From NCBI GenBank assembly GCA_043228905.1, contig JBHGNT010000015.1, positions 17,174,001 through 17,238,000 of the forward strand: a DNA stretch of 64,000 bases, written 5' to 3'. Origin of the DNA: Azolla caroliniana. Its lineage: Eukaryota; Plantae; Polypodiophyta. A program made the position numbers and the translations under genes. Of this stretch, positions 3,874 to 37,127 are shown one piece after another (the first letter of the stretch is position 1; the number at the start of each line of letters is the position of its first letter). The notes under the pieces were generated by a model, which had not been told where the DNA came from, did not search any database, and worked only from the letters and a program-made list of their open reading frames with translations.

Positions 3874-4556
3874 TGTCGCGTTGTTACGCGCGTGCGTGGA
3901 GAACAAGGCGGGACCACTGGGGTCTTGGACCGAGGAATAGGTGAGAAAAAGGGAGAGAGAGACACACGCTCACACACGTATAGACAAAGAAGCGCACGGG
4001 AACGCGGCCCAACAACACAGGAGACACGAGTTGAGCAGGAGATAGAGTATAAGAACGCTAGCGTGTGTATATAAATATATGTATGCAGACGACTCGAACG
4101 GTTACAGCCGATCAGGTTGGCGAGATGGATGTCGACGCCTGATCAGCCACGCACACGGGGGAGCAAGATGGAGATTCTGCCGGAAGCACACGGGCATTCC
4201 ACGGAGCAGAATCAGCCTCTCGAGAACCTGCGCAAAAGAAAGCTTTGGAGAATGATAGAGAAGAAGAGCTCGGTCCCAGTCCGACAACACTTCTTCCCCT
4301 CTAGCGCCCCCTTTCTCTCCCCTTCTCCCTCTCTTTTATAGCTCAAGGAGGGAGGCCGTTGACCAGTTTACATCACATTAATTCTTTGTCCTTTCGGATA
4401 GAGATACTCCTCAATTCTCCCTATAGAATATTGCTACCTAGGATTAGACTTTTGTGCCTACCTATCTACTATACAACAAGGGGCGTGCCCACGTGTAAGG
4501 GCCGGTTCACACATGCTATACACGGTTTGCGCCTGGGGACGGTTTTCTTCACGACA
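3874..4556 (-). repeat. 5' LTR of the gypsy element (683 bp)
   Basis: Termini TGTCGCG...CTTCACGACA. Both ends are homologous to the solo LTR at 35796-36549. A reverse-strand TATA (TTTTATAG) lies at about 4335. Confidence 0.88.
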
Positions 4557-5812
4557 ACGTGCGGATCCTTCTCCAAACAAATCGGGAGAGGTTCACAGCG
4601 CAATTGAAAACGGCGTTGGACAAAGGATGCTAGCAGACCAACACTATGAAGAACTCGCACAACTCTTAGATGATTTTGGTGAAAGTCAGGAGGAGCTATT
4701 TCACCAGATCACACAAGCCGGCAACACGCACACAAACAAGGAATCCAGCGCGACGCCAATTCCGGCCACAGCCAAAGAAGAGGAACCTCATGCCCGATCA
4801 CCAGAGATGACAATGATGGAGAATAGCGGGGACTGACGAGCGGAGTTCCCCACAGAACCAGACAGCGAAACCACTACCCAACAAGAGGTCCAACCGCACG
4901 AGCCCACACTATCATCAGACCACGTGGAGAACGGTGCGGACCAGGCGGAATCTCCGCCCCACTCCCAGGAACATACAAAAACGGCCAACACCACGGAGGA
5001 CGTAACAATGGAGGCAGAGCCGCAGCTGACTGCAAGCACGACAACGGCGGAGCCCAACCCACTAACTCAAGAAGAGCCCACCATACCCGGACCACCCACA
5101 CACGGCGACAGCGACTCCGGGAGAAACCAGCCCGACCAAACAGAGGAGCCACACCACGATGCACCTACGGGCCCTACATCACCTCCGGACGAGGACACCA
5201 CAGTAGAGCTGAACATCCGGGCCATTTTGGAAGAAGATTAACGGGATGGGTCCGACATGCAAGGGCACTGTCCCACAGGCGTGCCAAGTGTTGTCCGCCG
5301 GAATAGTAACCGACAGACAAAAGCGTAGGAATAAGAAATTATATAAGAGCATAACGCATGTAACGGTTCACGCAGGAAGCATGAACGGCTAATTAGACCC
5401 TGCATATATAAAGGGCAGAAAACCTCTGATGGAGGTGCGTATAATTTTGGGAATGTAAAGAAACGCCTGATAATAGAATTCTATCTTCTCTGATTTTCTA
5501 TGTATAGCTACGGCTAATTCAGTGTGGGTGTCTTGAATACTTAAACGTTGAAGTACGTAAGTGTAACCCTTGATAGGGATTCGGTTGTAGCCGTCTTTCC
5601 TTATACGCTGATAGATTACAAGGGTTCTACCCTTACGCATTACGCTTAAACACTTGTTCGTTGTTCCACACCCACTTTGAGGTCTAGGTCGAAGGACTAA
5701 CCACGGACCGTGTTCCTAAACGGCAACAACGGTGTCGTAAAGATTGTGGTTGCGTGTTGCAATCGCCAAGGTTCACTGACTCGAGGATGATCGTGTGGAT
5801 GGTGCGATGACA
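4557..5812 (+). mobile_element. Probable 3' end of an older LTR element (acidic/Pro-Thr-rich ORF, PPT-like AAGGGCAC, LTR ~5269-5812) into which the gypsy inserted
   Basis: ORFs 4513..4836 and 4924..5241 are in the same frame, separated by one TGA. They are followed by AAGGGCAC|TGTC...GACA with TATATAAAG at about 5405. No partner LTR is in the window. Confidence 0.4.
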
Positions 5813-8280
5813 AGAAGGCAAGATAGATGCGACTTTGTTGCGAAAACAAATTTATTTGTAAAACACCACTTACAATATTTATTTGCCAAAATGTACTTGG
5901 CAAGACTCAAACTCTCGAACTCTATTTGGGAAGAGGCATTCGAGATAAACCACTTCAACTTCTTTGTTTTCTCTTTTTATTTAAGTCTCTTTCTCTTTAT
6001 ATTTACTAAATTTATCTTACAAAATTCAATTACCAAAAATAGATATTTTGAAAGGATTCAAACTCACAACCTTTTGTTTGCAAAGGTGCAAGATAAACCA
6101 CTTCAACTTCTTCCTTTCTTTGTACTTTTTCTTTTCTTTAAGTTTTGTCTTTGTTTATGTTAGCCACCATCTTCTTTTGCGAGCTTTTCATACCACACCC
6201 ACACGAGGTTCTTCACTCGCTTTTTCTTCTTCCTTCCTTCTTCTTCCCCTCTTTTCCCTTTACCCTTCCCCCCTATTCAGCCACGATGGGAGTGCCTTTT
6301 ATAGGGGGGGGTCAACCGCCTAGCCACCTTGAGGAGTTTTTCTTTTTATCTATTTATTTTATTTATAAATTCTACAAATTCGACAACTAATCTGGAACTT
6401 TGTAAAATAATTTGTACAAGTTGTACATTTGAGAAATTGAGACATAGTAATTTGGAACTTGTGTCATAACCCACTTTTATATTGGTGATTGACTTCACGT
6501 CCTCCCTTCTATCATTGTCATTATCGTCACTTTCTTTAGTTGTTTTTTGTTGTCTAGAGGGTTCTAAGTTTGTAACAATTTGGTAGAATATCCTGACATC
6601 TTTTACATTAATTGAATATCCCAAAGTTTTTTCAAAATGACTTGATACACCTACGTTTTAATTCAATGAAAATTAACCCTAATAACTAGATAATCGTGAA
6701 TGTTAATCATCATCTCAAATGCTATTATTAATGTTAGTTATAAGCTCTCCTTCCCTGATTAAGAATAATCAAATAATTATGAGTTTCATTTATGGGCTCT
6801 TGTTTAGTATTCAAATTAACACTAATAACTAGAATATCTTAACTACATTCTCTAACTATTAATGTGACTTAATAAGAAAATGTAGGGTGTTCTAGCAATG
6901 TATAAGCAATGCGTGGGTCATTTGGTAGTTCTAGTAAATACTAGGGGTATTATCGTAATTTGTTACAAAGCTTGTGTATCTTGGTGTCCCGCCCCTTTTT
7001 ATATTGGGTAGTAAGGGTATACAACATGGTGAGCTAAGAGGAAGACGTTGAGGCGATTTGAGCAATATTTTGTTACGCCCAAGTTCAGATGATATGGTTT
7101 TAGGCTACAATATCACTTACAACTTGAACCCGCAAGCAATAATGTTGTTGGCATGAACATGAGCATCACACTATCATGTTTTATATACATTTAAATCAAA
7201 TATCCTCATGAAAATATAAGCAATAATTTGTGGGGACCTCATATAAAGGCACTTTGTGCTTTAGCATATAATGCCTTGTTTGTAGATTGTTGAATGAGTG
7301 ATGAAGATGTTTGTTTTGTTATGGTTATTAGTCAACATATATGGAATAATAATCTAACTGTATTTTGATTTGTAGTTTTTGGAAAGATTCCTCGATACAC
7401 GTAGCAAGTTATGGTACCATGAATTCAATCTTAACATTTTCTTGCAATATATCTATATTGTTTGCTTGAATCTTGTCTAAGTCACTAGGATACTTTACTC
7501 AATACTCCATAATTAAACAATGCATTCTTGTTCAAGCACAAAGTGAAAGCATAAAGAAATATTATGTTGGTATTGGCAATCCAAGGCATTTGATGGATAG
7601 GATCGAAGAAACAATGAGGCAGAACAATATATGAGGAATGGTTATGGTTTCTTGAACAAGAAGATATTAAAATGAAGAAATTTTCGAGGCTCGAGAGATG
7701 TAATGTATTGCCTAAGGTATACTTCTACTTTGTGAGTTTCCACTTCATTAACCTCATAGGCGTTCAACATGTATCAACAATCAAATCTTATCAGCATACG
7801 ATTCATAGAGTCTGCATTGTTTGAGATTTACTTGAAATCTTCAATCCAACATCTTTGAACTATTGGTGTATTGTGATTATGCATGTTGTAGGTAGTCGTT
7901 GTTTATTGTTGTTGCATGCTTCGTGACATATGATTATTGTAATTATTGTTCTGTGGGCATGCAAGTGTTGGGCATCTTCTTGATCTTTGTTGTCTTCTTT
8001 TCCTTATAGCCTCTAACTTGTATATTTTAGTATTGTTTCAATTAATATGACCACCTCTTGAAAGGGTCTTATGAATAATTTGGCAATAAGATAGTGTTGC
8101 CAATTGGAAAGTTCACTTGATGGAGTGAAATCTAGATTATGGGAACAATGCAATAACTTTTTAATAATGTTGTTTTAGTTTCAATCATTGCCATTATGTA
8201 TGGTTATCCACTCAACTTGGAGTAACTTAATCATACTAGCTGTCTTAATCTAGTTAGACAATGTAACACTTCTTATCAAT

Positions 8281-8430: not shown

Positions 8431-8463
8431 ACTAAATAATGATTAAGGGTTGGATAATAATAT

Positions 8464-8910: not shown

Positions 8911-11507
8911 CACCCCCTCAAGCTCAACTCGGATCGGTTCCTTTCGGTTGTTGTCCGCTTCGGATGGTATCCGGTTTGGACGATCTCCGGTGTCCGCTTC
9001 GACTCGTACCCGGTTCGGACGGTTTCTGGTTCTTGCTTGCCGAAGTCAACATCTAGTTTGAGGTTTCGATCGAGAGGGGTTGCCACAAATTTGCACTTTG
9101 TCATCCCGAACTTGAATAACAAGTTCAGAATGTAGTGTCGTTGAGAGATCATAATGTTGGCCAGAATCCGAATTACTTCGATGCCTAGGAAGTAATGAAG
9201 CTCCTTCATGTCCGTCATCTCGAATTTGTTAGAGAGGAGGGACTTCATCTTGTTGATGTCGACCAGATCATCCACGTATAGGATGATGAAAACTGGATTT
9301 CGACATTTAAAAATCCGATTTGATGAAGATATTGTGTAATCTTCGAATGTTAAGCATGTGGTGCTTGCTTGAGGCCGTAGAGTGGCTTCTTGAGTTGGCA
9401 CACGGCTTTAGGTTGAGTACGCGATTCGAAGCCGGGTGGTTGTACCATGTACACTTCCTCTTCTAATTCTCCTTAAAGAAAGGTGTTCTTGACGTCCATC
9501 TAGTGGAGGTGCCACCCTTTTGCCACTTAAAGTGCTATCATGGTTCGCACAATTGTCATCTTTGCCACCAGGGAAAATGTCTCTTCGTAGTCGACTCCAT
9601 GTGTTTGTGCGTATCCTTTCGCTACGAGTCAAGGTTTATAGCGGTTTATGGATCCATCGACGTTATACTTCACCTTGTAGATCCTTCTGCAGCCGATCGC
9701 CTTCTTGTGCGGTGAGTGGGGAACGAGATCCCATGTCTTGTTTTTGGAGACTGCTTGCATCTCCTCATTCATTGCTTCGACCCATCGCGGGTCCTTCACG
9801 ACTTCGGAAAAGGTTTCCGGCTCCCGTACTATCGTCACCTTCATCATAAAAGTGTAATGATACGCCATGTAGTCATCGTAGCCAAATAAGCTTATGGGGT
9901 TCTTTTCACGGGTAGACCGACGTAGCTTCTCGTTCGTAGATACTAAGGCTTTCATCGCTCCATTTGTCCACACGTCGAGCCCTTCGAACTCACTGTCGAG
10001 AGAGTGAGTTGATTTGATTTCGATCGGATCTTCGTATTCTGGCATTTTCACCTTGCCTTTGTCAATCGTTGGACTAGGTCGAGATGTGCTTGGGTCACTC
10101 GGGGGCTCTTGTGGCCCACTAAGCCTTGTCATAATCAGATTTTCTTCAAACATGTGTTCGATTCAATCTCCATCTATCTCTTGTTTGGTGGATTCCACGT
10201 CAACTGGAAATGGTTTGGGAGGATTCGGCTCGGGTTCATACCGTGATGCCGATTCGTCGAAGACTACATGTCGGCTTACACAACCCTTCCAAGTAGAGGG
10301 CTTATAGCACTTGTACCCCTTTTGCTCCACTGAGTATCCTACGAGGATACATTTCTCGGACTTTGGGTCGAGCTTTTGTCGCTTCTTGTCGGGGATGTGC
10401 ACGTATGCAATGGAGCTGAATATCCAAAGATATGATAGATCCGACTTCTTTCCGAAAAACTTCTCGTGCGGGGTAACCTCATGCACTCCGAATGTTGTGC
10501 ACCGATACATTAGGTAGACGGCTGTGTTCGTGGCTTCTGCCTAGTACGACTTCGGCATGTGCTTTTCATTCATCATGGCCTGTGCTACTTCGAGGATGTG
10601 CCGATTCTTTCATTTGGCAACTCCATTTTGTTGTGGCGTATGTCGACACAAAAACTATTGCCGAATGCCTTCTTTCCGTAGAAAAGCCGACAATTTGTCA
10701 AACGAGTAATCCTTGCCTCCATCCGACTGAAAACATCATAAATGTCAGCCCGTGGCTTTCTTGACTTCATTCTTAAATTTTTGGAAGTGTCCGAACACTT
10801 CGCTTCTTTGCCGCATAGGGTAGATTCAGGTGTGCCGGGAGAAGTCGTTGATAAGGCCACGTAGTATCGGCATCCGCCAAATGTAGCCTTCTGAGCCGAA
10901 CCCCATATATCGGAATGAATTACGTCGAGTACGCCTTTGATCACGTTCCGCTCCTTCAGAAATGGGTGTTGATGTTGTTTGCCGAATTGGCAAGCGGCAC
11001 ACACGCCTTCAATCTCTTTTTCCTTGAATGTAGGGAGCCCAATGACGACTCTTTTCGATTGCATTGCCTTGAGCTTTTGGAGGTTGATATGGCCAATCCG
11101 CTTGTGCCATAACTCTATGTTGGAATCGGCTTTCGTGCCCTTTGCGAACATGGACGATTTGATCTCGTGCGAGTCGAGAATGAACATTCGGCCACGAGTA
11201 ATGAGTCAGCCCTCTTTTTGGATGAAGCAACCGCCTTGATTAAATCGTACTTGCATCCCTTGCTCAACAATTTGGCCGACGAAGACCAAATTCTTTGTAA
11301 TGGTTGGTACATGCAAGACATTCTTAATAAAAGTTTGGTTACCTTCTTTTCTGAATGGAACATTGCCGATGTGCCGAATCGGATGAGTAGTGTCATCTCT
11401 GGTTTCAACATTGTCGGGTCGTTCCGGTGCTCGAAGTTCTCGAAACCATTCTTGATGAGACGTCATATGGTTCGAGGCACCGGAGTCGAAAAACCATACG
11501 TCTTCTG

Positions 11508-12123
11508 TGTTGAGAAACGAATCGTCAATACACAAGAACAAGAATATGTTGAAATACACAACTCTGAAACACAGAAAACAGTGTACACAAATTTAATGTG
11601 GAAAACCCTAAAACGTGAGAAAACCACGGAGAACGAATCTTCACTATATAGTGTATATACAAAACCAAGATCAGAGTACACCACTCTCTACACATAGTGT
11701 AAATAGCCTCGCAGGATCTTGGCGTATGCTGTTTCTAAAGCACAGTTATGGCGTCGCTCCCACACACACTCTTCTCTCTAACGCTACAGAGGTTCACCCA
11801 TATATATATCTTAATGTTTTGTTTGCCCTAGGTGTATTTATACTAATACATAGAATGGGCTATTTACAATCATGGCCATTATTATTATCCAATAATAATA
11901 ATAATAGTCTTACTAATCAGCCGACTCATTCGTCGACTGTCAGGTCGGTCTAACTAGTCGGCCTGCTCATCCACCATCCGGTCGACCTGACTAGCCAATC
12001 GTGTTTTTGACCTTGATCAACTCTCTCTGAGTCAACTCCTCAACCGTCGGTTGTTCCCTGTCTTTGACTATCGGCTCTCTTCGAGCAGTTGGCTACTCCC
12101 ACTGTAGGGACATATTCCTAACA
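11508..12123 (-). mobile_element. Solo LTR B (copia-type, 616 bp) inserted in the gag/protease junction of copia A
   Basis: TGTTGAG...CCTAACA with a 5-bp TSD TTCTG/TTCCG (perfect TTCCG in the copy at 25571). Removing it restores ...SSGTE-DVWF. It carries the reverse complement of the CCGTGGTTTT/AGGGTTTTCCAC motif seen in the copia D LTR. Confidence 0.88.
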
Positions 12124-12460
12124 TTCCGTACCGGAGGAACTAGTTGAAGTAGAAGCCGATATAGAATTTGCTCTATGTCTCATCACAAACATTCCGCCAC
12201 GATCGTCATAGTCGGAGTTGGTGGCGTAATTCGTGAGTTGTCGGCTAGTGGAAGCCGACTCACACATCTTCTTACGCCACTCTTCTTCGTGGTGACCTAT
12301 TTTTCTGCAATATCTGCATTCGACCAAGTTTTGTCGACTCCAACCAGAATGGAAGCTCCCCCTTCTTCCGAAGGTTCCTCGATGGCTTCCGTGTTGATGC
12401 CGAAATTGCGAGTTGTTTTCGTAAGTCGGGCCTCGTCCGCCTCATCCTTGGCCGAATCGG

Positions 12461-14926
12461 TGTCGTGTGATTCTTCACACACTATGTAAAAAAATAATGA
12501 AATAATTTTTTTAGATTAGGGATCCATACGTTTTCATAGTTTGTCTTTGTCGTGCTACCCTTAGCCACTTCCACCTAATGGTTGTCCGCATTGGCTTTGA
12601 CCTTTGTTTCTTCGCCACCACCTTCTCTCTCTTGGGTCTTACATCGGTTAATGCCCAAGTCTCAAGAACCTTTGTGGGGAAAGTCTCTTCATGATCGTCG
12701 TCTACCCTCTTCGGCTTGACGTCATTCTCCATGGCTATTTCCTTAGACTCATGGGCCTCGTACCCATGGACCCTCTTGATCGAGAAAGCCTTGATTATTC
12801 TTCCCTCTTCTTCGCATGTGTTCGTTTCGGCCTTCACTTCCTCGCCGCCACCTTCCGTCTCTTGGGTCTCACATTGGCATTTCGACGCAACTGCCTAAGT
12901 CTCTGGAACAAGTGTGAAGAAAGTCTCGACACGACCATCCGCCATTGACTGGTCCTTAGCCACCTTTGACTCAATGACATTTTTCATGGCTATCTCTTCA
13001 ATCACGTTGGCCTCACACTTTTTATCTCCCTTGATCATGCAAGCTTTGCTCATGCTTACACCTTCATCACTTGATGTTTCAAACACGATGTGTGTTCCAA
13101 AACATTTGTCCTTGCTTGAAGTGACATTTGCCACCCTCGATTCATTGATTTCATTCTTCGTCATTGTTTCTTTGCAAGACGAGAAGGCGCCTTGTTCCAC
13201 ATCTTCTCCCATGGTGCAGTCATACCGAACTTGGGCCTTCGTATTCGTCATATCATTACTCCATGTCTCTTCTTCCTTAATCACCATTTTAATGGGTTTT
13301 GGTTCCATTATAAGATTCTCTTTGGCCTCGACGTGCACCTTTAAATTCTCATGTGCCTCGTTTATGAAGGCCTCTATGTCGAGCATCATCGAACCTTCCC
13401 TCTTCAAGCTCTCTTCTTTAGGTGGTATTTTGTAGTTGCTTCCTGTCCTCCTTTCACCATTCGTCGTGGGTTGTGTTGTTGCCGATGAGAATCTTGTCTT
13501 CCTCTTATCGTGTAGTCAACATTCTCTTTCCACTTTCATCCAATCCTTGGTGAGGCCATTTGCACCATCATCATCCTCAAGTCGGATTCCAATGGCTTTC
13601 CTTTCCTTTTGATCGATTGACTTCACAAACATTAGGACTTTTTCCACCCCCACCAATCTTTGATCCTGCTCCGAGAGTTGTGCAAAGCGACACTCGAACT
13701 CAACGAAAGCATGCATGGCACTTTGATAGGTCTTTAATGATGATACCCATTGGTCGAACTCGTATAGGCTGCATCTCTTCGACTCTTTGTATCTATATGC
13801 CTCCATGAGATATCCTCATGTCGGGTGTCTTCAAGAGCTTCATAATGCATTTTACTACACATGAAACGAATAAATAAGTATCAAGTTATGTGAATATGAA
13901 GTTTGAGAAGATAAGGAAAATAGAATTGTGAAATATTCCACATAGATAGGAAACTTTAGGATCCATCTATATAAGCAAATTGAGAACTATTAGTTTTCAT
14001 CTATGTGTTGAGAGCACGAAAGGAATGTTTGGACTTGGACCAATTTGTCTACATGGACAAATGTGGCTAAGGAACCGGTGACCGGATGGAATCAGCGACC
14101 GGATAGAACCAGCAACAAAGCTGGGAACCGGAAACCGGATGGAGCTGGCGACCGGATAGAGTTGGCAACAAACCAGAAACCGGATAGAGTTGGCAACTAG
14201 AAACCGGAAATTGGCAACCGGACGGAGCCAGCAATCAGCAACTAGACGGCGACAGAACGGAAACTGGACGCAAACCGGACGGAGCCAACAATCGGCAACT
14301 GGCAACCGGATGGAGCCGGCAATCGGCAACCAGACGGCGATGGAACGGAAACTAGACGCGGACCAGACGGATCGGATGGGCAACGGTTGAGATGGACGGA
14401 TGATAGGATCATGCGACGAATTAAAGTAAAGTAAAGTAAAGGTCATGTGGAAGGCATGCAACTAAAAGTAAAGGCGAAGCAACTAAAAATGGGCCATGCA
14501 ACTAAAAATAAAGGCCAAGCAACTATTAATGGAGGCCATGCAACAAAAAGTGGGCATGCAAAGTAACATTGGAGACTATGATCAACAGAGAACTCCATAT
14601 ATATTCCATTTTTTTCTCCACTTTTTCCGCTCTCCATTTTTTTCCTTTTCCTTCTCGGGTCCCTTATCTCACAGAGCCATAACACTCAAAAACCCTAATT
14701 TTCCCTACGGAAGCCTTATTTGTCAAAACCCCTAATTTTTCTTTTCTATTAATCTTAGTAAACCGAAAACTTCTTAATCCCAATCTTGGGACATATTGTA
14801 ATTTTTTCTTCCTTTGCTAATGAAAAATTACTAAATTTTCTCCTTTCTCTTCATTGTTAAAAGTATAAACGCACGAATGTGATATCCTCTGGTCGGAGAC
14901 CCCGGGGTCCTACCTCAAGTTCACGT
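12461..14926 (-). mobile_element. Insertion C1: 2.47-kb non-autonomous gypsy derivative with gag fragment and acidic ORF
   Basis: 4-bp TSD TCGG (12457-12460 and 14927-14930). Removal restores host gag ...ARRGR-FGQG in frame. ORF 13516..13806 is homologous to gag 3022..3774 (FE.RFA.LS..D......VL.FVKS.D..ER..G..LE.DDG...LT.DW..V.R.C). Confidence 0.8.
14070..14560. repeat. Degenerate short tandem repeats inside C1 (ACCGGA-based, then CATGCAACTAAAA-based)
   Basis: Many AACCGGA(T/A/C) units at 14070-14400 and (GCC)ATGCAACTAAAA units at 14455-14560. Confidence 0.8.
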
Positions 14927-15067
14927 TCGGCCTCTTCTTGCATGACCGCGTCCTCTTTCTCCGTCCGAGTGTGAGTAAAGCATGTGGCCTTCCGAGGCGT
15001 TGCTCATTGTTCGAACATGGTTTTCTTCGACCAACAACATGTATTGAAGGTCGAAAAAGGAGGGCGG

Positions 15068-16113
15068 TGTCGTGAAGTACTAAAGCTTCACATTAAAAGT
15101 CTACAATAAGATAAATATGTAATGAAAATAAAATAAACCTTTATAATGTCAATAACATACTATGATAATATTATACATTATATGTAGAGACAAAAATATA
15201 TATATCTATTATATTACATGGACAAAAAAGGACTTGAACTAATAAACCCTACCTTATGACACTCAAAGGTTACCATTTAGCCTATACTAATAATTTACAA
15301 AATAATATATGATTTGAAGTAGTATTTTATAGTCTAAACCATGTAATATAATACATACACACCAACAACCTCAACCTTATGGCGTTCAAACCTTACCATT
15401 TAGCATATACTTATAATGTATATAATAATGTGTCTTGTTTTGATTTGAAGTAGGATTATATGGTTTAAACCATCAAACGTGCTACATGTGCACCATATAG
15501 CACACATGCAAGAGCCTCTCTGCATGTGCGCCACATGGTCCACATGTAGAACCATCTCTTCCCTATAAAAGGAGAAGGAAGTATAGACAAAAGAACCCAA
15601 GAAATAAGATTGAGAGGATTATATTGGATCTAGAGAAAGATATATCATAATAGAGAAAGAGGGAGAGAAAGGTATTTTTAAGAGAAAAGAAGAATTAGCT
15701 TGGTGGTTGTGGTCCTCAACTCGCAACGGAAGGGCGACGATTCGAGTCTTATACTTGTTGAGAGATTGAAGGGAAGACTATGGTCTATTTCTACTATTAA
15801 GAAAGAGGAAGTTGGTTACCTTGCGAGACAAGAATTGAAGGTTCAATGTGACAACGACGCTTGCAACCATTTTGTAACTCTTTCATGAAAATGATTATAA
15901 ATTTCATATATTTTCTCAAATATTATTTTATATCTTATCTTGTCATATCTTATATTCCTTAAAAATCCTATCTTGTCATATCTTATTGATCTCTATTCAC
16001 TCCATCTCTACTCTTTCGTCTCTTCCGTCCATAATCCCAACGATTCCTTCCTCACTTTCACATTATCTTTTGTTTGTGCAACACCACGCTTCTAGGCGAG
16101 CCACGTCATGACA
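15068..16113 (+). mobile_element. Solo LTR C2 (1046 bp) of the TGTCGTGAAG gypsy group
   Basis: TGTCGTGAAG...TCATGACA with a perfect 4-bp TSD GCGG (15064-15067 and 16114-16117). Removal restores host gag ENP-PSFFDLQ in frame. TATA (CCCTATAAAA) at about 15561. Confidence 0.88.
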
Positions 16114-16780
16114 GCGGATTCTCCGGTGCTAGTATGGCAGTCCTCATCGCACCGAACCGTGGTGCAAGGCCGCCGAGGCATATTTGCACCATCTCATCAT
16201 CGTCCACATTGACACTTATCAAGCCAAGCGAGTCCCAAAGCTCCTTGATCTTCAAGGTGTAGCTCGTGATGGACATATCCCTTTGTTAGATGTTGTTCAA
16301 CTCTTGGCGGAGTTGAAGCTTTCTTGCAGTTGTGTTGGCGGCGAAAATCTTTCGTAGTCTCCCACGCTTCCTTTGGCGTCTCGGTTTCTCGAATGTAGCC
16401 GAGCATGTGGTCGTGAACACATGTCACCAACCAATATATCACTCGGCTTGCGACTTGCTCCCATGTTGCGTAGTCTACGTCTTTTGGGTCGGGTCGGTTT
16501 TCTTGTGCTCCTTTGATGTAACCCCAATAGCCTTGGCCGACAAGGTATTGGTGCATCTTGTACTCCCAAGATGCAAAGTTGTTTCGATCTAGCTTCTTAG
16601 TAGGGAGAGCGCTTCCCATTTGAGTATTTATTGTCGATGAAGATTTCTTCCTTCTTTTATGTTCCTTCTCTGTCGAATACGAGCTATGTAATCGCACTAC
16701 AATAGCGATGGACCGGTTCTTCTCGAACATCGGCGTAGAACACAACACACGTGGATGGGCTAGATCGAGCTACGAAACCA

Positions 16781-16791
16781 CTCCGATACCA
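16781..16791 (-). promoter_or_regulatory. PBS (tRNA-iMet) of copia A
   Basis: Reverse strand TGGTATCGGAG abuts the LTR. Confidence 0.85.
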
Positions 16792-17250
16792 TGTAAAGAA
16801 TCGGATATGATTCTTGTGTAGCGGAAGAGGTGTGTGTTATGTGTGAGAGAAAAGAGATGAGAGAAAAGAGATGAGAGAAAAGAAACACAAGATAGATAAG
16901 GTAGAGAAATGAAATACTCAAGAAAAAGAAGATGTATGTTCACATGTAAAATAGCAAATACAAAATATAGCATTACAAGGAGTCACAACCGACTTAATAT
17001 GGAGTAGGAGGAGGGTGCTTTATATAGTCACCCTCTCTATTCATTAACTACAACAACCACTCTCTTGGGGAATGTGGAGACCCATTAGTCATGGGGAATA
17101 TGAAACTCATTAGTTACGTGTCATAGAATATGATTCTATGACACATAGTTAATGTGTAGAGAGTAGTGGTGTGACTCTTTATTTTTGAGTAATCATAGAT
17201 TCTCAAAAGGTGTGTTCACACGTTGCACTATGTTGAGCTTGATTCTCAAC
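16792..17250 (-). repeat. 5' LTR of copia A (terminal base damaged)
   Basis: Homologous to 8464-8910. It ends ...TCTCAAC|T instead of CAACA. Confidence 0.9.
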
Positions 17251-18539: not shown

Positions 18540-19155
18540 TGTTGAGAAACGAATCGTCAATACACAAGAACAAGAATATGTTGAAATACACAACTCTGAA
18601 ACACAGAAAACAGTGTACACAAATTTAATGTGGAAAACCCTAAAACGTGAGAAAACCACGGAGAACGAATCTTCACTATATAGTGTATATACAAAACCAA
18701 GATCAGAGTACACCACTCTCTACACATCGTGTAAATAGCCTCGCAGGATCTTGGCGTATGCTGTTTCTAAAGCACAGTTATGGCGTCGCTCCCACACACA
18801 CTCTTCTCTCTAACGCTACAGAGGTTCACCCATATATATATCTTAATGTTTTGTTTGCCCTAGGTGTATTTATACTAATACATAGAATGGGCTATTTACA
18901 ATCATGGCCATTATTATTATCCAATAATAATAATAATAGTCTTACTAATCAGCCGACTCATTCGTCGACTGTCAGGTCGGTCTAACTAGTCGGCCTGCTC
19001 ATCCACCATCCGGTCGACCTGACTAGCCAATCGTGTTTTTGACCTTGATCAACTCTCTCTGAGTCAACTCCTCAACCGTCGGTTGTTCCCTGTCTTTGAC
19101 TATCGGCTCTCTTCGAGCAGTTGGCTACTCCCACTGTAGGGACATATTCCTAACA
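18540..19155 (-). mobile_element. Solo LTR B, duplicated copy
   Basis: 11508-12123 shifted by +7032. Confidence 0.88.
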
Positions 19156-19492
19156 TTCCGTACCGGAGGAACTAGTTGAAGTAGAAGCCGATATAGAATT
19201 TGCTCTATGTCTCATCACAAACATTCCGCCACGATCGTCATAGTCGGAGTTGGTGGCGTAATTCGTGAGTTGTCGGCTAGTGGAAGCCGACTCACACATC
19301 TTCTTACGCCACTCTTCTTCGTGGTGACCTATTTTTCTGCAATATCTGCATTCGACCAAGTTTTGTCGACTCCAACCAGAATGGAAGCTCCCCCTTCTTC
19401 CGAAGGTTCCTCGATGGCTTCCGTGTTGATGCCGAAATTGCGAGTTGTTTTCGTAAGTCGGGCCTCGTCCGCCTCATCCTTGGCCGAATCGG

Positions 19493-21958
19493 TGTCGTGT
19501 GATTCTTCACACACTATGTAAAAAAATAATGAAATAATTTTTTTAGATTAGGGATCCATACGTTTTCATAGTTTGTCTTTGTCGTGCTACCCTTAGCCAC
19601 TTCCACCTAATGGTTGTCCGCATTGGCTTTGACCTTTGTTTCTTCGCCACCACCTTCTCTCTCTTGGGTCTTACATCGGTTAATGCCCAAGTCTCAAGAA
19701 CCTTTGTGGGGAAAGTCTCTTCATGATCGTCGTCTACCCTCTTCGGCTTGACGTCATTCTCCATGGCTATTTCCTTAGACTCATGGGCCTCGTACCCATG
19801 GACCCTCTTGATCGAGAAAGCCTTGATTATTCTTCCCTCTTCTTCGCATGTGTTCGTTTCGGCCTTCACTTCCTCGCCGCCACCTTCCGTCTCTTGGGTC
19901 TCACATTGGCATTTCGACGCAACTGCCTAAGTCTCTGGAACAAGTGTGAAGAAAGTCTCGACACGACCATCCGCCATTGACTGGTCCTTAGCCACCTTTG
20001 ACTCAATGACATTTTTCATGGCTATCTCTTCAATCACGTTGGCCTCACACTTTTTATCTCCCTTGATCATGCAAGCTTTGCTCATGCTTACACCTTCATC
20101 ACTTGATGTTTCAAACACGATGTGTGTTCCAAAACATTTGTCCTTGCTTGAAGTGACATTTGCCACCCTCGATTCATTGATTTCATTCTTCGTCATTGTT
20201 TCTTTGCAAGACGAGAAGGCGCCTTGTTCCACATCTTCTCCCATGGTGCAGTCATACCGAACTTGGGCCTTCGTATTCGTCATATCATTACTCCATGTCT
20301 CTTCTTCCTTAATCACCATTTTAATGGGTTTTGGTTCCATTATAAGATTCTCTTTGGCCTCGACGTGCACCTTTAAATTCTCATGTGCCTCGTTTATGAA
20401 GGCCTCTATGTCGAGCATCATCGAACCTTCCCTCTTCAAGCTCTCTTCTTTAGGTGGTATTTTGTAGTTGCTTCCTGTCCTCCTTTCACCATTCGTCGTG
20501 GGTTGTGTTGTTGCCGATGAGAATCTTGTCTTCCTCTTATCGTGTAGTCAACATTCTCTTTCCACTTTCATCCAATCCTTGGTGAGGCCATTTGCACCAT
20601 CATCATCCTCAAGTCGGATTCCAATGGCTTTCCTTTCCTTTTGATCGATTGACTTCACAAACATTAGGACTTTTTCCACCCCCACCAATCTTTGATCCTG
20701 CTCCGAGAGTTGTGCAAAGCGACACTCGAACTCAACGAAAGCATGCATGGCACTTTGATAGGTCTTTAATGATGATACCCATTGGTCGAACTCGTATAGG
20801 CTGCATCTCTTCGACTCTTTGTATCTATATGCCTCCATGAGATATCCTCATGTCGGGTGTCTTCAAGAGCTTCATAATGCATTTTACTACACATGAAACG
20901 AATAAATAAGTATCAAGTTATGTGAATATGAAGTTTGAGAAGATAAGGAAAATAGAATTGTGAAATATTCCACATAGATAGGAAACTTTAGGATCCATCT
21001 ATATAAGCAAATTGAGAACTATTAGTTTTCATCTATGTGTTGAGAGCACGAAAGGAATGTTTGGACTTGGACCAATTTGTCTACATGGACAAATGTGGCT
21101 AAGGAACCGGTGACCGGATGGAATCAGCGACCGGATAGAACCAGCAACAAAGCTGGGAACCGGAAACCGGATGGAGCTGGCGACCGGATAGAGTTGGCAA
21201 CAAACCAGAAACCGGATAGAGTTGGCAACTAGAAACCGGAAATTGGCAACCGGACGGAGCCAGCAATCAGCAACTAGACGGCGACAGAACGGAAACTGGA
21301 CGCAAACCGGACGGAGCCAACAATCGGCAACTGGCAACCGGATGGAGCCGGCAATCGGCAACCAGACGGCGATGGAACGGAAACTAGACGCGGACCAGAC
21401 GGATCGGATGGGCAACGGTTGAGATGGACGGATGATAGGATCATGCGACGAATTAAAGTAAAGTAAAGTAAAGGTCATGTGGAAGGCATGCAACTAAAAG
21501 TAAAGGCGAAGCAACTAAAAATGGGCCATGCAACTAAAAATAAAGGCCAAGCAACTATTAATGGAGGCCATGCAACAAAAAGTGGGCATGCAAAGTAACA
21601 TTGGAGACTATGATCAACAGAGAACTCCATATATATTCCATTTTTTTCTCCACTTTTTCCGCTCTCCATTTTTTTCCTTTTCCTTCTCGGGTCCCTTATC
21701 TCACAGAGCCATAACACTCAAAAACCCTAATTTTCCCTACGGAAGCCTTATTTGTCAAAACCCCTAATTTTTCTTTTCTATTAATCTTAGTAAACCGAAA
21801 ACTTCTTAATCCCAATCTTGGGACATATTGTAATTTTTTCTTCCTTTGCTAATGAAAAATTACTAAATTTTCTCCTTTCTCTTCATTGTTAAAAGTATAA
21901 ACGCACGAATGTGATATCCTCTGGTCGGAGACCCCGGGGTCCTACCTCAAGTTCACGT
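19493..21958 (-). mobile_element. Insertion C1, duplicated copy
   Basis: 12461-14926 shifted by +7032. Confidence 0.8.
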
Positions 21959-22099
21959 TCGGCCTCTTCTTGCATGACCGCGTCCTCTTTCTCCGTCCGA
22001 GTGTGAGTAAAGCATGTGGCCTTCCGAGGCGTTGCTCATTGTTCGAACATGGTTTTCTTCGACCAACAACATGTATTGAAGGTCGAAAAAGGAGGGCGG

Positions 22100-23145
22100 T
22101 GTCGTGAAGTACTAAAGCTTCACATTAAAAGTCTACAATAAGATAAATATGTAATGAAAATAAAATAAACCTTTATAATGTCAATAACATACTATGATAA
22201 TATTATACATTATATGTAGAGACAAAAATATATATATCTATTATATTACATGGACAAAAAAGGACTTGAACTAATAAACCCTACCTTATGACACTCAAAG
22301 GTTACCATTTAGCCTATACTAATAATTTACAAAATAATATATGATTTGAAGTAGTATTTTATAGTCTAAACCATGTAATATAATACATACACACCAACAA
22401 CCTCAACCTTATGGCGTTCAAACCTTACCATTTAGCATATACTTATAATGTATATAATAATGTGTCTTGTTTTGATTTGAAGTAGGATTATATGGTTTAA
22501 ACCATCAAACGTGCTACATGTGCACCATATAGCACACATGCAAGAGCCTCTCTGCATGTGCGCCACATGGTCCACATGTAGAACCATCTCTTCCCTATAA
22601 AAGGAGAAGGAAGTATAGACAAAAGAACCCAAGAAATAAGATTGAGAGGATTATATTGGATCTAGAGAAAGATATATCATAATAGAGAAAGAGGGAGAGA
22701 AAGGTATTTTTAAGAGAAAAGAAGAATTAGCTTGGTGGTTGTGGTCCTCAACTCGCAACGGAAGGGCGACGATTCGAGTCTTATACTTGTTGAGAGATTG
22801 AAGGGAAGACTATGGTCTATTTCTACTATTAAGAAAGAGGAAGTTGGTTACCTTGCGAGACAAGAATTGAAGGTTCAATGTGACAACGACGCTTGCAACC
22901 ATTTTGTAACTCTTTCATGAAAATGATTATAAATTTCATATATTTTCTCAAATATTATTTTATATCTTATCTTGTCATATCTTATATTCCTTAAAAATCC
23001 TATCTTGTCATATCTTATTGATCTCTATTCACTCCATCTCTACTCTTTCGTCTCTTCCGTCCATAATCCCAACGATTCCTTCCTCACTTTCACATTATCT
23101 TTTGTTTGTGCAACACCACGCTTCTAGGCGAGCCACGTCATGACA
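22100..23145 (+). mobile_element. Solo LTR C2, duplicated copy
   Basis: 15068-16113 shifted by +7032. Confidence 0.88.
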
Positions 23146-23823
23146 GCGGATTCTCCGGTGCTAGTATGGCAGTCCTCATCGCACCGAACCGTGGTGCAAG
23201 GCCGCCGAGGCATATTTGCACCATCTCATCATCGTCCACATTGACACTTATCAAGCCAAGCGAGTCCCAAAGCTCCTTGATCTTCAAGGTGTAGCTCGTG
23301 ATGGACATATCCCTTTGTTAGATGTTGTTCAACTCTTGGCGGAGTTGAAGCTTTCTTGCAGTTGTGTTGGCGGCGAAAATCTTTCGTAGTCTCCCACGCT
23401 TCCTTTGGCGTCTCGGTTTCTCGAATGTAGCCGAGCATGTGGTCGTGAACACATGTCACCAACCAATATATCACTCGGCTTGCGACTTGCTCCCATGTTG
23501 CGTAGTCTACGTCTTTTGGGTCGGGTCGGTTTTCTTGTGCTCCTTTGATGTAACCCCAATAGCCTTGGCCGACAAGGTATTGGTGCATCTTGTACTCCCA
23601 AGATGCAAAGTTGTTTCGATCTAGCTTCTTAGTAGGGAGAGCGCTTCCCATTTGAGTATTTATTGTCGATGAAGATTTCTTCCTTCTTTTATGTTCCTTC
23701 TCTGTCGAATACGAGCTATGTAATCGCACTACAATAGCGATGGACCGGTTCTTCTCGAACATCGGCGTAGAACACAACACACGTGGATGGGCTAGATCGA
23801 GCTACGAAACCACTCCGATACCA

Positions 23824-24282
23824 TGTAAAGAATCGGATATGATTCTTGTGTAGCGGAAGAGGTGTGTGTTATGTGTGAGAGAAAAGAGATGAGAGAAAAG
23901 AGATGAGAGAAAAGAAACACAAGATAGATAAGGTAGAGAAATGAAATACTCAAGAAAAAGAAGATGTATGTTCACATGTAAAATAGCAAATACAAAATAT
24001 AGCATTACAAGGAGTCACAACCGACTTAATATGGAGTAGGAGGAGGGTGCTTTATATAGTCACCCTCTCTATTCATTAACTACAACAACCACTCTCTTGG
24101 GGAATGTGGAGACCCATTAGTCATGGGGAATATGAAACTCATTAGTTACGTGTCATAGAATATGATTCTATGACACATAGTTAATGTGTAGAGAGTAGTG
24201 GTGTGACTCTTTATTTTTGAGTAATCATAGATTCTCAAAAGGTGTGTTCACACGTTGCACTATGTTGAGCTTGATTCTCAAC
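23824..24282 (-). repeat. 5' LTR of copia A, duplicated copy
   Basis: 16792-17250 shifted by +7032. Confidence 0.9.
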
Positions 24283-24462
24283 TTATACAAAACAAAAATC
24301 TAGCTCAAAATGGTTTCTTATGTTAACAAATAAGAGTTAATCATCTACTTAATTTCAAGCAATATATATATATATTCAATTTTCAATTAAGTGCATGATC
24401 AATCTCCATGTATTAGTTTCCCAGTCAAGCTTTTATACAAAACAATGTGATGCAATAGGGAA

Positions 24463-26327
24463 GCATGTATGTAATGGAGTTGAATATCCAAACATGTGAT
24501 AGATCCGACTTCCTTCTGAAAAACTTCTCGTGCGGGGCAACCTCATGCACTCCGGATGTTGTGCACCGATTCATTAGGTAGACGGTTGTGTTTGTGGCTT
24601 CTGCCTAGTACGACTTCGGCATTAGCTTTTCATTAATCATGGCCGTGCTACTTCGAGGATGTGCCGAATTTTTCATTTGGCCACTCCGTTTTGTTGTGGA
24701 GTATGTCGACACAAAAACTGTCGCCGAATGCCTTCTTTCCGTAGAAAAGACGACAATTCGTCGAAGAAGTAATCCTTGCCTCCATCCGACCGAAGACATC
24801 ATACATGTCAGCCCTTGGCTTTCTTGACTTCATTCTTAAATTTTTGGAAGTGTCCGAACACTTCGCTTCTTTGCCGCATGGGGTAGATCCAGGTGTGCTG
24901 GGAGAAGTCGTTGATGAAGGCCACATAGTATCGGCATCCGCCGAATGTAGCCTTCTAAGCCGGACCCCATATATCGGAATGAATTACGTCGAGTACGCCT
25001 TTGCTCACGTTCCGCTCCTTCAGAAATGGGTGCTGATGTTGTTTGCCGAATTGGCAAGCGGCACACACGCCTTCAATCTCTTTTTCCTTGAATGTAGGGA
25101 GCCCAATGACGACTCTTTTCGATTGCATTGCCTTGAGCTTTTGGAGGTTGATATGGCCAATCCGCTTGTGCCATAACTCTATGTTGGAATCGGCTTTCGT
25201 GCCCTTTGCGAACATGGACGATTTGATCTCGTGCGAGTCGAGAATGAACATTCGGCCACGAGTAATGAGTCAGCCCTCTTTTTGGATGAAGCAACCGCCT
25301 TGATTAAATCGTACTTGCATCCCTTGCTCAACAATTTGGCCGACGAAGACCAAATTCTTTGTAATGGTTGGTACATGCAAGACATTCTTAATAAAAGTTT
25401 GGTTACCTTCTTTTCTGAATGGAACATTGCCGATGTGCTGAATCGGATGAGTAGTGTAATCTCTGGTTTCAAATAGCCGGGTCGTTCCGGCTCTCGAAGT
25501 TCTCGAAACCATTCTTGATGAGACGTCATATGGTTCGAGGCACCGGAGTCGACAAACCATACGTCTTCCGTGTTGAGAAACGAATCGTCAATACACAAGA
25601 ATAGGAATATGTTGAAATACACAACTCTGAAACACAGAAAACAGTGTACACAGATTTAATGTGGAAAACCCTAAAACGAGAGAAAACCACGGAGAACGAA
25701 TCTTCACTATATAGTGTATAAACAAAACCAAGATCAGAGTACAACACTCTCTACACATGGTGTAAATAGCCTCGCAAGATCTTGGTGTATGCTGTTTCTA
25801 AAGCACAGTTATGGCGTCGCTCCCACACACACTCTTCTCTCTAACGCTACAGAGGTTCACCCATATATATATATCTTAATGTTCTATTTGCCCTAGGTGT
25901 ATTTATACTAATACATAGAATGGGCTATTTACAATCATGGCCATTATTATTATCCAATAATAATAATAATAGTCTTACTAATCAGCCGACTCATTCGTCA
26001 ACTGTCAGGTCGGTCTAACTAGTCGGCCTGCTCATCCACCATCCGGTCGACCCGACTAGCCAATCGTTTTTTTGACTTGATCAACTCACTCTGAGTCAAC
26101 TCCTCAACTGTCGGTTGTTCCCTGTCTTTGACTATCGGCTCTCTCCGAGCAGTTGGCTACTCCCACTACAGGGACATATTCCTAACATTCCGTACCAGAG
26201 GAACTAGTTGAAGTAGAAGTCGATATAGAATTTGCTCTATGTCTCATCACAAACATTCCGCCACGATCGTCATAGTCGGAGTTGGTGGCATAATTAGTGA
26301 GTTGTCGTATGCAATGGAGCTGAATAT
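24463..26327 (-). repeat. Segment A': older, diverged duplicate of 10399-12243 (integrase, protease, solo LTR B at 25571-26187), followed by a 22-nt restart
   Basis: Collinear with 10399-12243 with scattered substitutions and the same LTR B insertion (TSD TTCCG). 26306-26327 matches 10402-10423 exactly. Confidence 0.88.
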
Positions 26328-33615: not shown

Positions 33616-33687
33616 GGGATGAAAAAGAAAAGCGGAATAAGATATTAGTATGAAGGGAGAGAGACAGAAGGGAAATTTGGTTCAAAC

Positions 33688-33816
33688 TGTCAGGAATAGT
33701 ACTAAATAGAGAGAGGATTAGTACTAGAGAAGGGAGGTATTATTAGTACTAAGAGGACGGGACTGTGTAAGACTCCCGAGAGAGGAAGAGAGAAGAGGAG
33801 AGCGAGAGATAGCGAG

Positions 33817-33851
<35 letters not shown>

Positions 33852-34140: not shown

Positions 34141-35795
34141 TGGAGAGGGTCCAGAGTATGCTGGTACATGCAAAATTACCCAAGACGTTTTGGGTTGAGG
34201 CACTGTCGACGGCGACATACGTGATAAACAGATCACCCTCAGTACCCTTGGACGGAGACACGCCGCAGAGAGTATGGACCGGTAAGGAAGTGTCCTACTG
34301 GCATCTGAAGGTGTTCGGGTGTCTCGCGTACGTGCATGTAGCTAAGGACCGGAGAGGAAAGTTGGATCCAAAGACCCGACCATGCATATTCCTTGGTTAC
34401 TGCGATGATGAGTTGGGCTACCGAGTGTGGGACCTGGCCGACAAGAAGGTATTCCGGAGTCGAGATATTATCTTCATGGAGGACAAGACGCTCGTCGACT
34501 GGGAGTCGGAGAAGAAGATAATGAACTCCGAGTCGACCGGTAAGGATCGATTCTACGATGAGCAGACCCAACCGGCAAGAGACCGGTTAGCACTCGATGA
34601 ACCGGCCGGTGACGGTAAGGAGACAAGACAGGCCGAAGAAGAAGGAATAGGTGAAACCGGAACCAGCCAAGACCCCGAATCGGATTCGGATGAAGAACAA
34701 ATAGAGGAGTCGGTTGCCGAAAGCCAAAGACGGAGATATCCTCTCAGAGAGAGAAGGGCCCCCTAGAGATTTCCAGATGCAGAGCATGTGCTGCTGACCG
34801 ATGAGGGGGAGCCGGAAAGCTTCGAAGAAGCGAAGGATGACACCAATAGCCGCAAGTGGTTGAGTGCCATGCAGGATGAGATGGATTCCTTGCATGAGAA
34901 CCACACGTATGAATTGGTGGAGTTGCCGAAAGGAAAGAGGGCACTCCAAAACAAGTGGGTGTACAAGTTGAAACCGGGAGATGCTGGAAACCCTCCAAGG
35001 TACAAAGCCAGGATCGTGGTGAAGGGGTTCCAGCAGAAGAAGGGTGTGGACTTCGATGAGATATTTGCCCCAGTAGTAAAGATGACTTCCATCCGGACGG
35101 TGTTGAGCATAGCGGCAAGCATGGACCTCAAGATAGAGCAGCTAGACGTGAAGACGGCATTCCTTCACGGTGACCTCGAAGAGGAGATCTACATGCCGCA
35201 ACCAGAAGGATTCGTGGAGAAAGGGAAGGAGCACCTGGTTTTCCGGTTGAAGAAGAGCTTGTACGGACTGAAGCAGGCTCCTCGACAATGGTACCGGAAG
35301 TTCGACTCCTTCATGACCGACCAAGGGTATCACAAAACGCAAACCAATCACTACGTGTTTGTGAAGGATTTCGAAGGAGGTGACTTCCTGATACTCCTTC
35401 TGTACGTGGACGACATGTTGATCGTCGGACGGGACCAAGCCAAAATACGGATGCTGAAGAAGGCTCTCAACCGAACTTTCTCAATGAAAGACTTGGGCCC
35501 GGCAAGACAGATATTGGGGAGGCACATCATTCGGGACCTGTCAAAGAAGCAATTGTGGTTGTCACAGGAGAAATACGTGACAAAGGTGCTTCAGCGGTTC
35601 AACATGTTAGAAGCAAAACCGGTCGGATCGACACTCCCGGCAAACTGCAGACTATCCGGTAAGCAAAGCCCGAAGACGAAAGCAGAGAAGGCGGATATGG
35701 TGAAGGTTCCATATGCCTCTGTCGTCGGGAGCTTGATGTAGGCAATGGCGTGTACTCGGTCAGACATTGGATACACAGTCGGAGTGGTGAGCCGG

Positions 35796-36549
35796 TGTCG
35801 CGTTGTTACGCTCGTGCGTGTAGAAAGGCGGGACCACGGGGGTCCTGGACTAGGGAGTGACGGAGCGCAGGAAGTCATGCTTCACCCTTTTCGGGGCACC
35901 CCAGGAGCACACCGGAAGCAACCGAACGAGAGAGAGAAACAGAGGGAGACAGAGAGGGAGCGCGCGCTTGACACCGACTCGCACACACACACACACCGAC
36001 CCGACTCACGCCCTTATGTGCAGGAACGCAGGAAAGGGGAAGCACCCGACACCAACAGAGACACGAGTATACACAGACAGACGCAAAAGTATGTATTTCA
36101 AGGGAAAGAATACAACCCCGGCCTCGAGCCGAACCAAGCTAGGGTAGGTTACAACAGCAGTCTACAGCCAAGCCGCCGTCCGGGGAGCTCTCGGGCTCGT
36201 CACGCAGAGCGGGGTCTTGCACAGGAGACCGAGCGGGAACAACCCTCCACAGTCCACCCACACCGCAAAGAAGAGGAAGAAGAAGTAGAGGAACTAACCC
36301 TAAATCTAACGGTATACCCTCTAACACAAAATGGGCAACCCCCTCGAAGAGGGGCGCTCCCTTCCTTTTATAGAACAAGGAGAGGGATGCGTTACAATGT
36401 GGGATAAATCCCGACTTAACTATTGTTCGGCGCCATAAAGGCGCCCTCGTCATTCACACTAAATGTACAAGGGTCAGCGCACATGTTGCACCCCGCCGAT
36501 GTGGCCAACATTTCCCGGTTTCCGCCTCTGACTGAAATTCTTCACGACA
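35796..36549 (-). mobile_element. Solo LTR H (754 bp) of the TGTCGTGAAG gypsy group, inserted in the RT of copia D
   Basis: TGTCGCGTTGTTACGC...CTTCACGACA, the same termini as 3874-4556. 4-bp TSD CCGG. Removal restores GVVSR-FMSNP. Confidence 0.92.
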
Positions 36550-37127
36550 CCGGTTTATGAGCAATCCCAGCAAGGAGCACTGGAACGCGGTCAAATGGAT
36601 ACTACGGTACTTGAAGGGCACTTAGAATATGTGTCTCCGATTCGGCTCTGGTAAACCTTAACTTGACGGGTTTACCGATTCGGACATGTCGGCCGATGTG
36701 GATACCAGCCGGTCTACATCTGGGTATGTAATGACATATGCAAGGGGAGTTGTTTCATGGCAGTCGAGGCTGTAGAATACGGTTGCGTTGTCAACCACGG
36801 AAGCGGAGTACATGGATGTATTATGGATGAAGGACTTCATCAATGAGCTCGGTATCCGGCAAGATGAATACCGGCTCTATTGTGACAGTCAAAGTGCCAT
36901 CCACCTTGCTAAGAACGCAGCGTACCATTCCAGGACGAAGCACATCCAGCGTAGGTATCACTGGATCCGGGAGCGAGTAGAAGATCGAGAGTTCACACTG
37001 ACGAAGATCCACACGGCCGAGAACGGGTCAGATATGTTGACCAAAGTACTGATACCCGACAAGCTGGATGCATGTCGGAAGCGGATCGGACTAGTAAGAC
37101 ATCCCATGCCGGAGTGAAGGGGGAGTT

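What the first reader, a model, noticed from the sequence alone, without database searches (positions are those of the whole stretch)
3874..36553. A gypsy lineage that appears to integrate specifically at CpG, making 4-bp N-CG-N target duplications
Seen: four independent insertions share the LTR 5' terminus TGTCGTGAA(G): the element at 1-4556, C1 (12461-14926, terminus damaged), solo LTR C2 (15068-16113) and solo LTR H (35796-36549). Their TSDs are 4 bp: TCGG, GCGG and CCGG. Each is confirmed because removing the insert plus one TSD copy restores the host reading frame. The single visible flank of the first element is ACGT. All four have CG at positions 2-3. Even at 1/16 per site, four of four is about 1.5e-5. 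All four landed inside other retroelements (the first host is only tentatively one). Other elements in the window make ordinary 5-bp TSDs (TGGAG, TTCCG). Established: most plant LTR elements make 5-bp TSDs with weak sequence preference. Inference: this integrase reads CpG, possibly methyl-CpG, which would steer it into silenced repeats.
Basis: partly seen in the sequence, partly recalled or inferred. Interest (0 to 1): 0.82.

Follow-up and report, generated by a model that had tools for sequence, protein, structure and literature searches.

The report
CpG-targeting Phygy-type retrotransposon in a fern
This jumping-gene family, in what is likely a fern, almost always inserts at a CG base pair and duplicates four bases around it; the same habit is already published for the Phygy group of mosses, to which it likely belongs, and nothing found here shows that the CG has to be methylated.

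Summary
Three two-sided 4-bp duplications (TCGG, GCGG, CCGG) and one ACGT flank are in the window. Empty-site contigs skip exactly insert+4 bp for H and C1. In metagenome contigs carrying the E1/H LTR end, 35 of 38 independent host junctions are NCGN; the other three are single CG-to-TG/CA changes (background CpG 3.3%).

It is not new in kind. REXdb (PMC6317226) reports 186 Phygy elements with 100% 4-bp NCGN duplications and mostly tRNA-Trp priming, and Phygy is reported from ferns. E1 fits on duplication, primer site (tRNA identity recalled) and lack of extra domains; phylogenetic membership was untestable without a Phygy reference.

Methyl-CpG reading is unsupported. The integrase type has no chromo or methyl-binding domain. 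Only about 17 of 38 flanks are recognisably transposon-derived. Not found in my literature searches: a strong ACGT/ACGG preference with T almost excluded, and a one-residue-shorter integrase loop. Three look-ups in earlier scan notes found nothing similar.

The parts
3874..4556 (-). 5' LTR of element E1 (683 bp), TGTCGTGAAG ... CAACGCGACA
   Evidence: same ends next to PBS or PPT in loci
4557..4560 (.). single visible flank of E1, ACGT
3851..3868 (-). 18-nt primer-binding site after a 5-nt spacer; matches the 3' end of plant tRNA-Trp as recalled
   Evidence: sequence; conserved in 11 of 51 loci; tRNA identity recalled, not confirmed by a tool (searches found nothing usable)
1737..3774 (-). gag (with weak DUF4100 match) and aspartic protease of E1, broken by stops/frameshifts
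   Evidence: (DUF4100 E 1.2e-5, below cut-off)
3..1466 (-). reverse transcriptase of E1, runs off the window; RNase H and integrase lie outside
   Evidence: RVT_1; 79% to full pol P0121
12457..14930 (-). C1: deleted element of the same lineage with TCGG duplication; LTR body 13827-14926 (5' end damaged), gag fragments 12519-13826, last 58 bp of an LTR 12461-12518
   Evidence: (joints 12456>14927 and 12518>13827)
15064..16117 (+). C2: solo LTR (1046 bp) with GCGG duplication; lineage assigned by terminus only
19489..23149 (.). identical second copies of C1 and C2 inside a 7032-bp tandem duplication; not independent events
35792..36553 (-). H: solo LTR (754 bp) of the E1 family with CCGG duplication, inside a copia RT
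   Evidence: 79% over its length to L043
28432..34145 (-). control: chromodomain-bearing (Tcn1-like) gypsy element with 5-bp TGGAG duplication

Best explanation
These are copies of a non-chromovirus Ty3/gypsy lineage, likely Phygy, that insert with a 4-bp stagger centred on a CG dinucleotide, likely because the integrase itself reads the target sequence. Shown: 4-bp duplications, central CG, a palindromic preference for A or C before and G or T after the CG, and an integrase that ends without an extra targeting domain. Inferred by analogy with foamy-virus intasomes: the two active sites kink the target at the central step, which favours a pyrimidine-purine step. An additional base-specific contact must narrow this to CG; the C-terminal-domain loop and the shortened loop after the second catalytic Asp are candidates, both untested. 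Nesting in other transposons would follow from where CpGs are abundant, not from a methyl mark.
For: 35 of 38 unique junctions NCGN, with CG at no other offset above 3 of 38. CG is only 14.6% of pyrimidine-purine steps in the flanks, so flexibility alone fails (P 3e-26). Half-site bases are A44 C18 G7 T1 of 70, against background 24/26/16/34% (P 1.5e-14); ACGT 15 vs 2.0 expected. 9 of 38 sites have at most one other CpG in the adjacent 100 bp, and CpG next to sites is not higher than further off (3.0 vs 3.7 per 100 bp, n=33). L018 and L014 join this LTR to an integrase end 72-75% identical to P0121's. No chromo or methyl-binding Pfam family is listed for the 120 long homologues or found on 7 rescanned; the tail after the CTD has a median of 34 aa in 96. 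The model is a plain integrase matching PFV and Ty3 intasomes over its whole length. REXdb Phygy: 4 bp NCGN 100%, tRNA-Trp 81%, no extra domain; ferns carry Phygy and Tcn1, and this window holds a Tcn1-like element too. Central flexible-step rule: PMC4422553.
Against: No P. patens Phygy sequence was available, so membership rests on features, not on a tree. E1's own integrase is outside the window. No residue was shown to contact the CG; the PFV Ala188/HIV Ser119 position contacts bases outside the duplication, not its centre. A D(34)E spacing also occurs in a copia integrase in this window. Of 4 loci showing both ends of a solo LTR, only 1 has identical flanks (L040); L024 differs by one base, L047 and L048 by two, so the 4-bp length rests on the window cases, L040 and the empty-site joints. 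Absence of a reader domain does not exclude methyl sensitivity in the catalytic pocket.
Confidence: 0.72

Rival explanations
1. The integrase needs, or strongly prefers, methylated CpG, and so is steered into silenced DNA.
For: The three two-sided window insertions sit in copia coding sequence. At least 13 of 38 other sites lie within 1.5 kb of transposon-coding sequence. All 3 non-CG targets at the 3' end are deamination-type changes, and C>T/G>A dominate family variation. Phygy is reported enriched at centromeres of a liverwort. A methylation effect on retroviral integration in vitro is recalled (Kitamura 1992; only its title was seen).
Against: No chromo or methyl-binding domain. Deamination shows methylation at some time, not before insertion; L047 and L048 have CG on one side and TG on the other, as post-insertion decay would give if they are not chimeric. 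More than half of the flanks have no recognisable transposon sequence, though non-coding parts would be missed and short-read assembly favours unique flanks; one site is beside an Alba-domain ORF.
Confidence: 0.12
2. Same targeting, but a sister or separate lineage rather than Phygy proper (for example a fern/liverwort clade next to it).
For: No Physcomitrium name appears among the 240 listed RT homologues or in 10 clusters looked up. TatI also has 4-bp TSDs and tRNA-Trp priming.
Against: NCGN is described as exclusive to Phygy among plant lineages. No second RNase H was found in the relatives and linker lengths leave little room, which argues against TatI. The Selgy primer is tRNA-Ala. Transposon proteins are mostly absent from named gene sets.
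Confidence: 0.11
3. A host protein bound at CpG tethers the integration complex and fixes the cut position.
For: Factor-directed positioning exists for Ty3 (TFIIIB-bound tRNA genes; entry title).
Against: The preference is palindromic and confined to the four duplicated bases; positions -5 to -14 look flat (by inspection). A bound protein would be expected to occlude its own site (inference).
Confidence: 0.04
4. Artefact: the CG belongs to the element's end, or arises from how the cases were chosen.
For: The window grouping was made after seeing the TSDs; C2 is assigned by terminus only.
Against: The collection scan fixed only LTR-internal bases. The same terminus is followed by the PBS spacer, not NCGN, in 11 loci. 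Outer TSD bases vary and match on both sides. Empty sites retain one copy.
Confidence: 0.01

Closest known systems
Phygy clade of Ty3/gypsy non-chromoviruses (REXdb; Neumann et al. 2019, PMC6317226; read: passages, section 9, Additional file 5)
   Same: 4-bp TSD with NCGN motif; primer site read as tRNA-Trp; no chromodomain or aRH; pol running almost to the 3' LTR (L018); reported also in ferns (PMC13477047, passage) and a liverwort (PMC12885004, passages).
   Different: Host here is fern-like rather than Physcomitrium. The motif is resolved further to ACGT > ACGG/CCGT with T/A almost excluded at the outer positions. Non-autonomous-looking members with the same LTR ends occur (L020, L042). No direct sequence comparison was possible.
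TatI and Selgy clades (REXdb)
   Same: 4-bp TSDs; TatI uses tRNA-Trp.
   Different: No NCGN preference reported; TatI carries aRH between protease and RT; Selgy uses tRNA-Ala and is about 5 kb.
Drosophila ZAM-subgroup errantiviruses (PMC5408687, passages)
   Same: Gypsy-type integrases with a palindromic CG-containing target (CGCG).
   Different: Target CGCG has central GC, not CG; different clade; in an organism without CpG methylation (recalled), showing that CG-rich specificity needs no methyl mark.
Prototype foamy virus intasome (PMC4422553, abstract and passages)
   Same: Best structural match of the integrase model; 4-bp TSD class, central pyrimidine-purine step unstacked, T disfavoured at the joining base.
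   Different: PFV has only a weak preference. This lineage is near-absolute for CG and has a one-residue-shorter loop after the second Asp (D-R-G-E-L, D34E in 95 of 96).

Membership tests
Phygy (REXdb) | Clusters with P. patens Phygy in RT-RH-INT phylogeny | not testable with these tools
   REXdb element table and FASTA too large to read; no Physcomitrium-named homologue listed
Phygy (REXdb) | 4-bp TSD with NCGN motif | tested here: met
Phygy (REXdb) | PBS complementary to tRNA-Trp | tested here: inconclusive
   Conserved 18-nt TGG-starting PBS in E1 and 11 loci; identity as tRNA-Trp is recalled; scans for a tRNA gene carrying it found 0 (non-plant collections)
Phygy (REXdb) | No extra domain (chromodomain, aRH) in the polyprotein | tested here: met
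   Tested on relatives (P0121, 79% to E1 RT) and on family loci L018/L014, not on E1's own integrase:
Phygy (REXdb) | Length 7.7-10 kb with coding sequence filling the internal part | not testable with these tools
   E1 runs off the window; no genome; loci are under 4 kb
Tat/TatI | aRH domain between protease and RT | tested here: not met
   No second RNase H family in 7 polyproteins; protease-motif to RT distance 150-260 aa in 17 relatives, about 125 of it protease; none seen in E1's translation
Selgy | PBS complementary to tRNA-Ala | tested here: inconclusive
   PBS reads as tRNA-Trp by recall only; Selgy has no NCGN preference
Chromovirus (Tcn1, Galadriel) | C-terminal chromodomain on integrase | tested here: not met
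   E1 RT only 27% identical to the in-window chromovirus RT
Methyl-CpG-directed integrase (hypothetical) | Targets methylated before insertion; preference lost on unmethylated DNA | not testable with these tools
   No methylome or biochemical data available

The most novel reading that the evidence does not exclude
Phygy-type integrases read methylated CpG directly in the catalytic target pocket, helped by a lineage-wide shortened loop (D-R-G-E-L, D34E), making them a transposon that aims at silenced DNA by sensing the DNA mark itself rather than a histone mark or host factor.
Probability: 0.1. Interest if true: 0.8.

Novelty: new member of a known kind. Interest (0 to 1): 0.24.

Why it matters
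The headline is in print for Phygy, but as a single sentence and a table cell; a search for 'NCGN' with 'retrotransposon' returned 3 papers, only that one on this subject. That makes it a tractable system for asking how a DDE integrase reaches strict dinucleotide specificity, and whether methylation matters. Practically, LTR finders tuned to 5-bp TSDs would under-call these elements (inference), and decayed TSDs (TG/CA) can hide older copies.

Tried and rejected
No whole genome is held, so the genome-wide logo came from metagenome contigs instead.

I first suspected that C1's right end was a truncated primer-binding site and its TCGG a microhomology. Rejected: contigs join 12518 to 13827, so 13827-14926 is LTR body, and the empty-site joint skips insert+4.

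Loose-end tables of laid contigs did not expose flanks of other H, C1 or C2 copies (output truncated), so the C1 and C2 families have no independent TSD sample.

Confirming the PBS tRNA: a paper search returned only unrelated mouse papers; pattern scans of prokaryote and viral collections gave 0.

A Physcomitrium reference was sought and not found. The ESM Atlas gave only generic integrase clusters.

D(34)E as a lineage-unique marker: rejected, because a copia integrase in the window has the same spacing through a deletion further along.

My notebook entry calling the motif asymmetric was wrong; it is palindromic.

Rows dropped before the 38 count: 11 PBS-linked loci and 2 duplicates of 51. 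At the opposite LTR end, 8 host junctions were seen: 5 NCGN (L006, L008, L040, L046, L048), 2 deamination-type (L017, L047), 1 other (L024 AAGG).

Earlier scan notes: three look-ups, nothing bearing on this.
Full report
Observation. The window is plant DNA. Its MYB gene (45996-48038) has its best named homologues in ferns (Adiantum at ranks 4 and 12, with a lycophyte next), so the host is likely a fern. C1, C2 and H have exact 4-bp flanking repeats TCGG, GCGG and CCGG, and E1's one visible flank is ACGT. Host frames line up across each break when the flanks are translated separately, and C2's flanks overlap by four bases on a paralogue. Public contigs cross H with a 758-bp skip in 4 of 4 runs and C1 with a 2470-bp skip in 3 of 3 runs, each equal to insert plus four. 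C1 and C2 are repeated identically 7032 bp downstream in a tandem duplication. The four are at least three LTR families: only E1 and H share LTR sequence, C1 is linked by gag homology, and C2 only by its terminus.

Independent test. With no genome held, I scanned metagenome contigs for 24 fixed bases inside the LTR end shared by E1 and H, which does not constrain the flank; 51 loci came back. One is 94% identical to E1 over 1.6 kb, so they derive from the same or a closely related plant. Eleven continue into the primer-binding site and two are duplicates, leaving 38 unique host junctions. Of these, 35 are NCGN and the other three (ACAT, CTGG, ATGG) are one deamination step from it; background CpG is 3.3%, P about 2e-48, and no other offset exceeds 3 of 38. 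At the opposite LTR end, 5 of 8 junctions are NCGN, 2 deamination-type and 1 AAGG. Of four loci showing both ends of a solo LTR only L040 has identical flanks; the rest differ by one or two bases, through decay, recombination or chimeric assembly.

Shape of the preference. It is palindromic and confined to the duplicated bases. Half-sites carry A 44, C 18, G 7, T 1 of 70, against a background of 24, 26, 16 and 34% (P 1.5e-14); ACGT occurs 15 times against 2.0 expected. CG makes up only 14.6% of pyrimidine-purine steps nearby, so bendability alone cannot give 35 of 38 (P 3e-26).

The element. E1 has an LTR, a 5-nt spacer, an 18-nt primer site, gag, protease and RT on the minus strand; the primer site matches plant tRNA-Trp by recall only. 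RT homologues with names come from Riccia, Adiantum and Calypogeia. The closest full pol (P0121, 79% identical) carries RT, RNase H and integrase only. Two family loci, L018 and L014, hold an integrase end 72-75% identical to P0121's next to the polypurine tract and LTR, with about 130 bp between the end of the match and the LTR in L018. In 96 near-complete homologous integrases the tail after the C-terminal domain has a median of 34 residues, two exceeding 80, and 95 have D(34)E with the motif D-R-G-E/D-L. Alignments to Ty3, PFV and three gypsy integrases of other lineages put a one-residue gap right after that Asp. The predicted model (mean pLDDT 82, pTM 0.60) matches PFV and Ty3 intasome chains along its whole length, though with a different domain arrangement (rmsd about 24 A).

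Mechanism. Shown: 4-bp stagger, central CG, outer-base bias, no add-on domain in the integrase type. Inferred: intasomes with short staggers unstack a central pyrimidine-purine step and disfavour T at the joining base (PMC4422553, abstract and passages), which fits. A further base-specific contact is needed to reach CG alone; which residue makes it is unknown. The shortened loop is only a candidate, since the equivalent PFV/HIV residue contacts bases outside the duplication and a copia integrase in the window is also D(34)E.

Methylation. Nothing here measures it. Transposon-coding homology lies within 1.5 kb of 12 of 38 sites by tblastx/tblastn, plus one by Pfam among 101 ORFs from the remaining flanks. 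About four more flanks resemble LTRs or repeats (L004, L013, L044, L046). One site is about 70 bp past an Alba-domain ORF. Nine of 38 sites have at most one other CpG within 100 bp, and local CpG density is not raised. Short-read assembly favours unique flanks, so these fractions cannot be compared with a genome-wide expectation. In the window, transposon blocks have CpG O/E of about 0.8-1.1 and the gene-bearing stretch 0.2-0.75, enough to explain nesting without a methyl reader.

Comparison with what is known. Neumann et al. [quoted passage not shown] Jedlicka et al. (PMC6911290, passages) report 4-bp TSDs as commonest in Phygy and Phygy nested in Tcn1. Phygy is reported in ferns (PMC13477047, passage) and in a liverwort, with centromeric enrichment (PMC12885004, passages). 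PMC7466625 (passages, one supplement searched), PMC13469084 and PMC8282616 (passages) added nothing on target sites. I read passages in 6 of the 18 papers naming Phygy. Searches for a refined motif or a methylation test found none; subscription papers are not covered.

Verdict. A real and unusually strict target preference, correctly spotted, but already described for Phygy. E1 works like Phygy and meets the features that could be tested; the defining phylogenetic test could not be run. New member of a known kind, interest 0.24. The methyl-CpG reading remains open at about 10%.

Noticed in passing
window 10399-26307: Tandem duplication with a 7032-bp period, 99.1% identical, C1 and C2 copies 100% identical; a very recent duplication or an assembly artefact.
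   Followed up: no
L013:230-260: Two LTR ends of this family separated by only ACGT, as expected if a second copy inserted into the duplicated target left by the first.
   Followed up: partly
L020:333-3311 and L042:3-2294: Members with the same LTR ends and long ORFs without RT; L020's 993-aa gag-like ORF has no Pfam match and resembles C1's gag. Likely non-autonomous derivatives.
   Followed up: partly
window 1162-1558: 198-bp tandem duplication (97%) inside E1 between protease and RT.
   Followed up: no
window 3869-3873: A 5-nt spacer separates LTR and primer site in E1 and most family loci (6 nt in L036), longer than the 2 nt that integrases usually trim (recalled).
   Followed up: no
window 38000-54000: The gene-bearing stretch around the MYB ORF is CpG-depleted (O/E 0.2-0.75) while transposon blocks are not (about 0.8-1.1), the reverse of the usual expectation for methylated repeats.
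   Followed up: no
window about 28300 (+): A copia integrase with D(34)E spacing through a deletion further along the helix.
   Followed up: no
L002:718-1404: Insertion about 70 bp downstream of an Alba-domain ORF.
   Followed up: no
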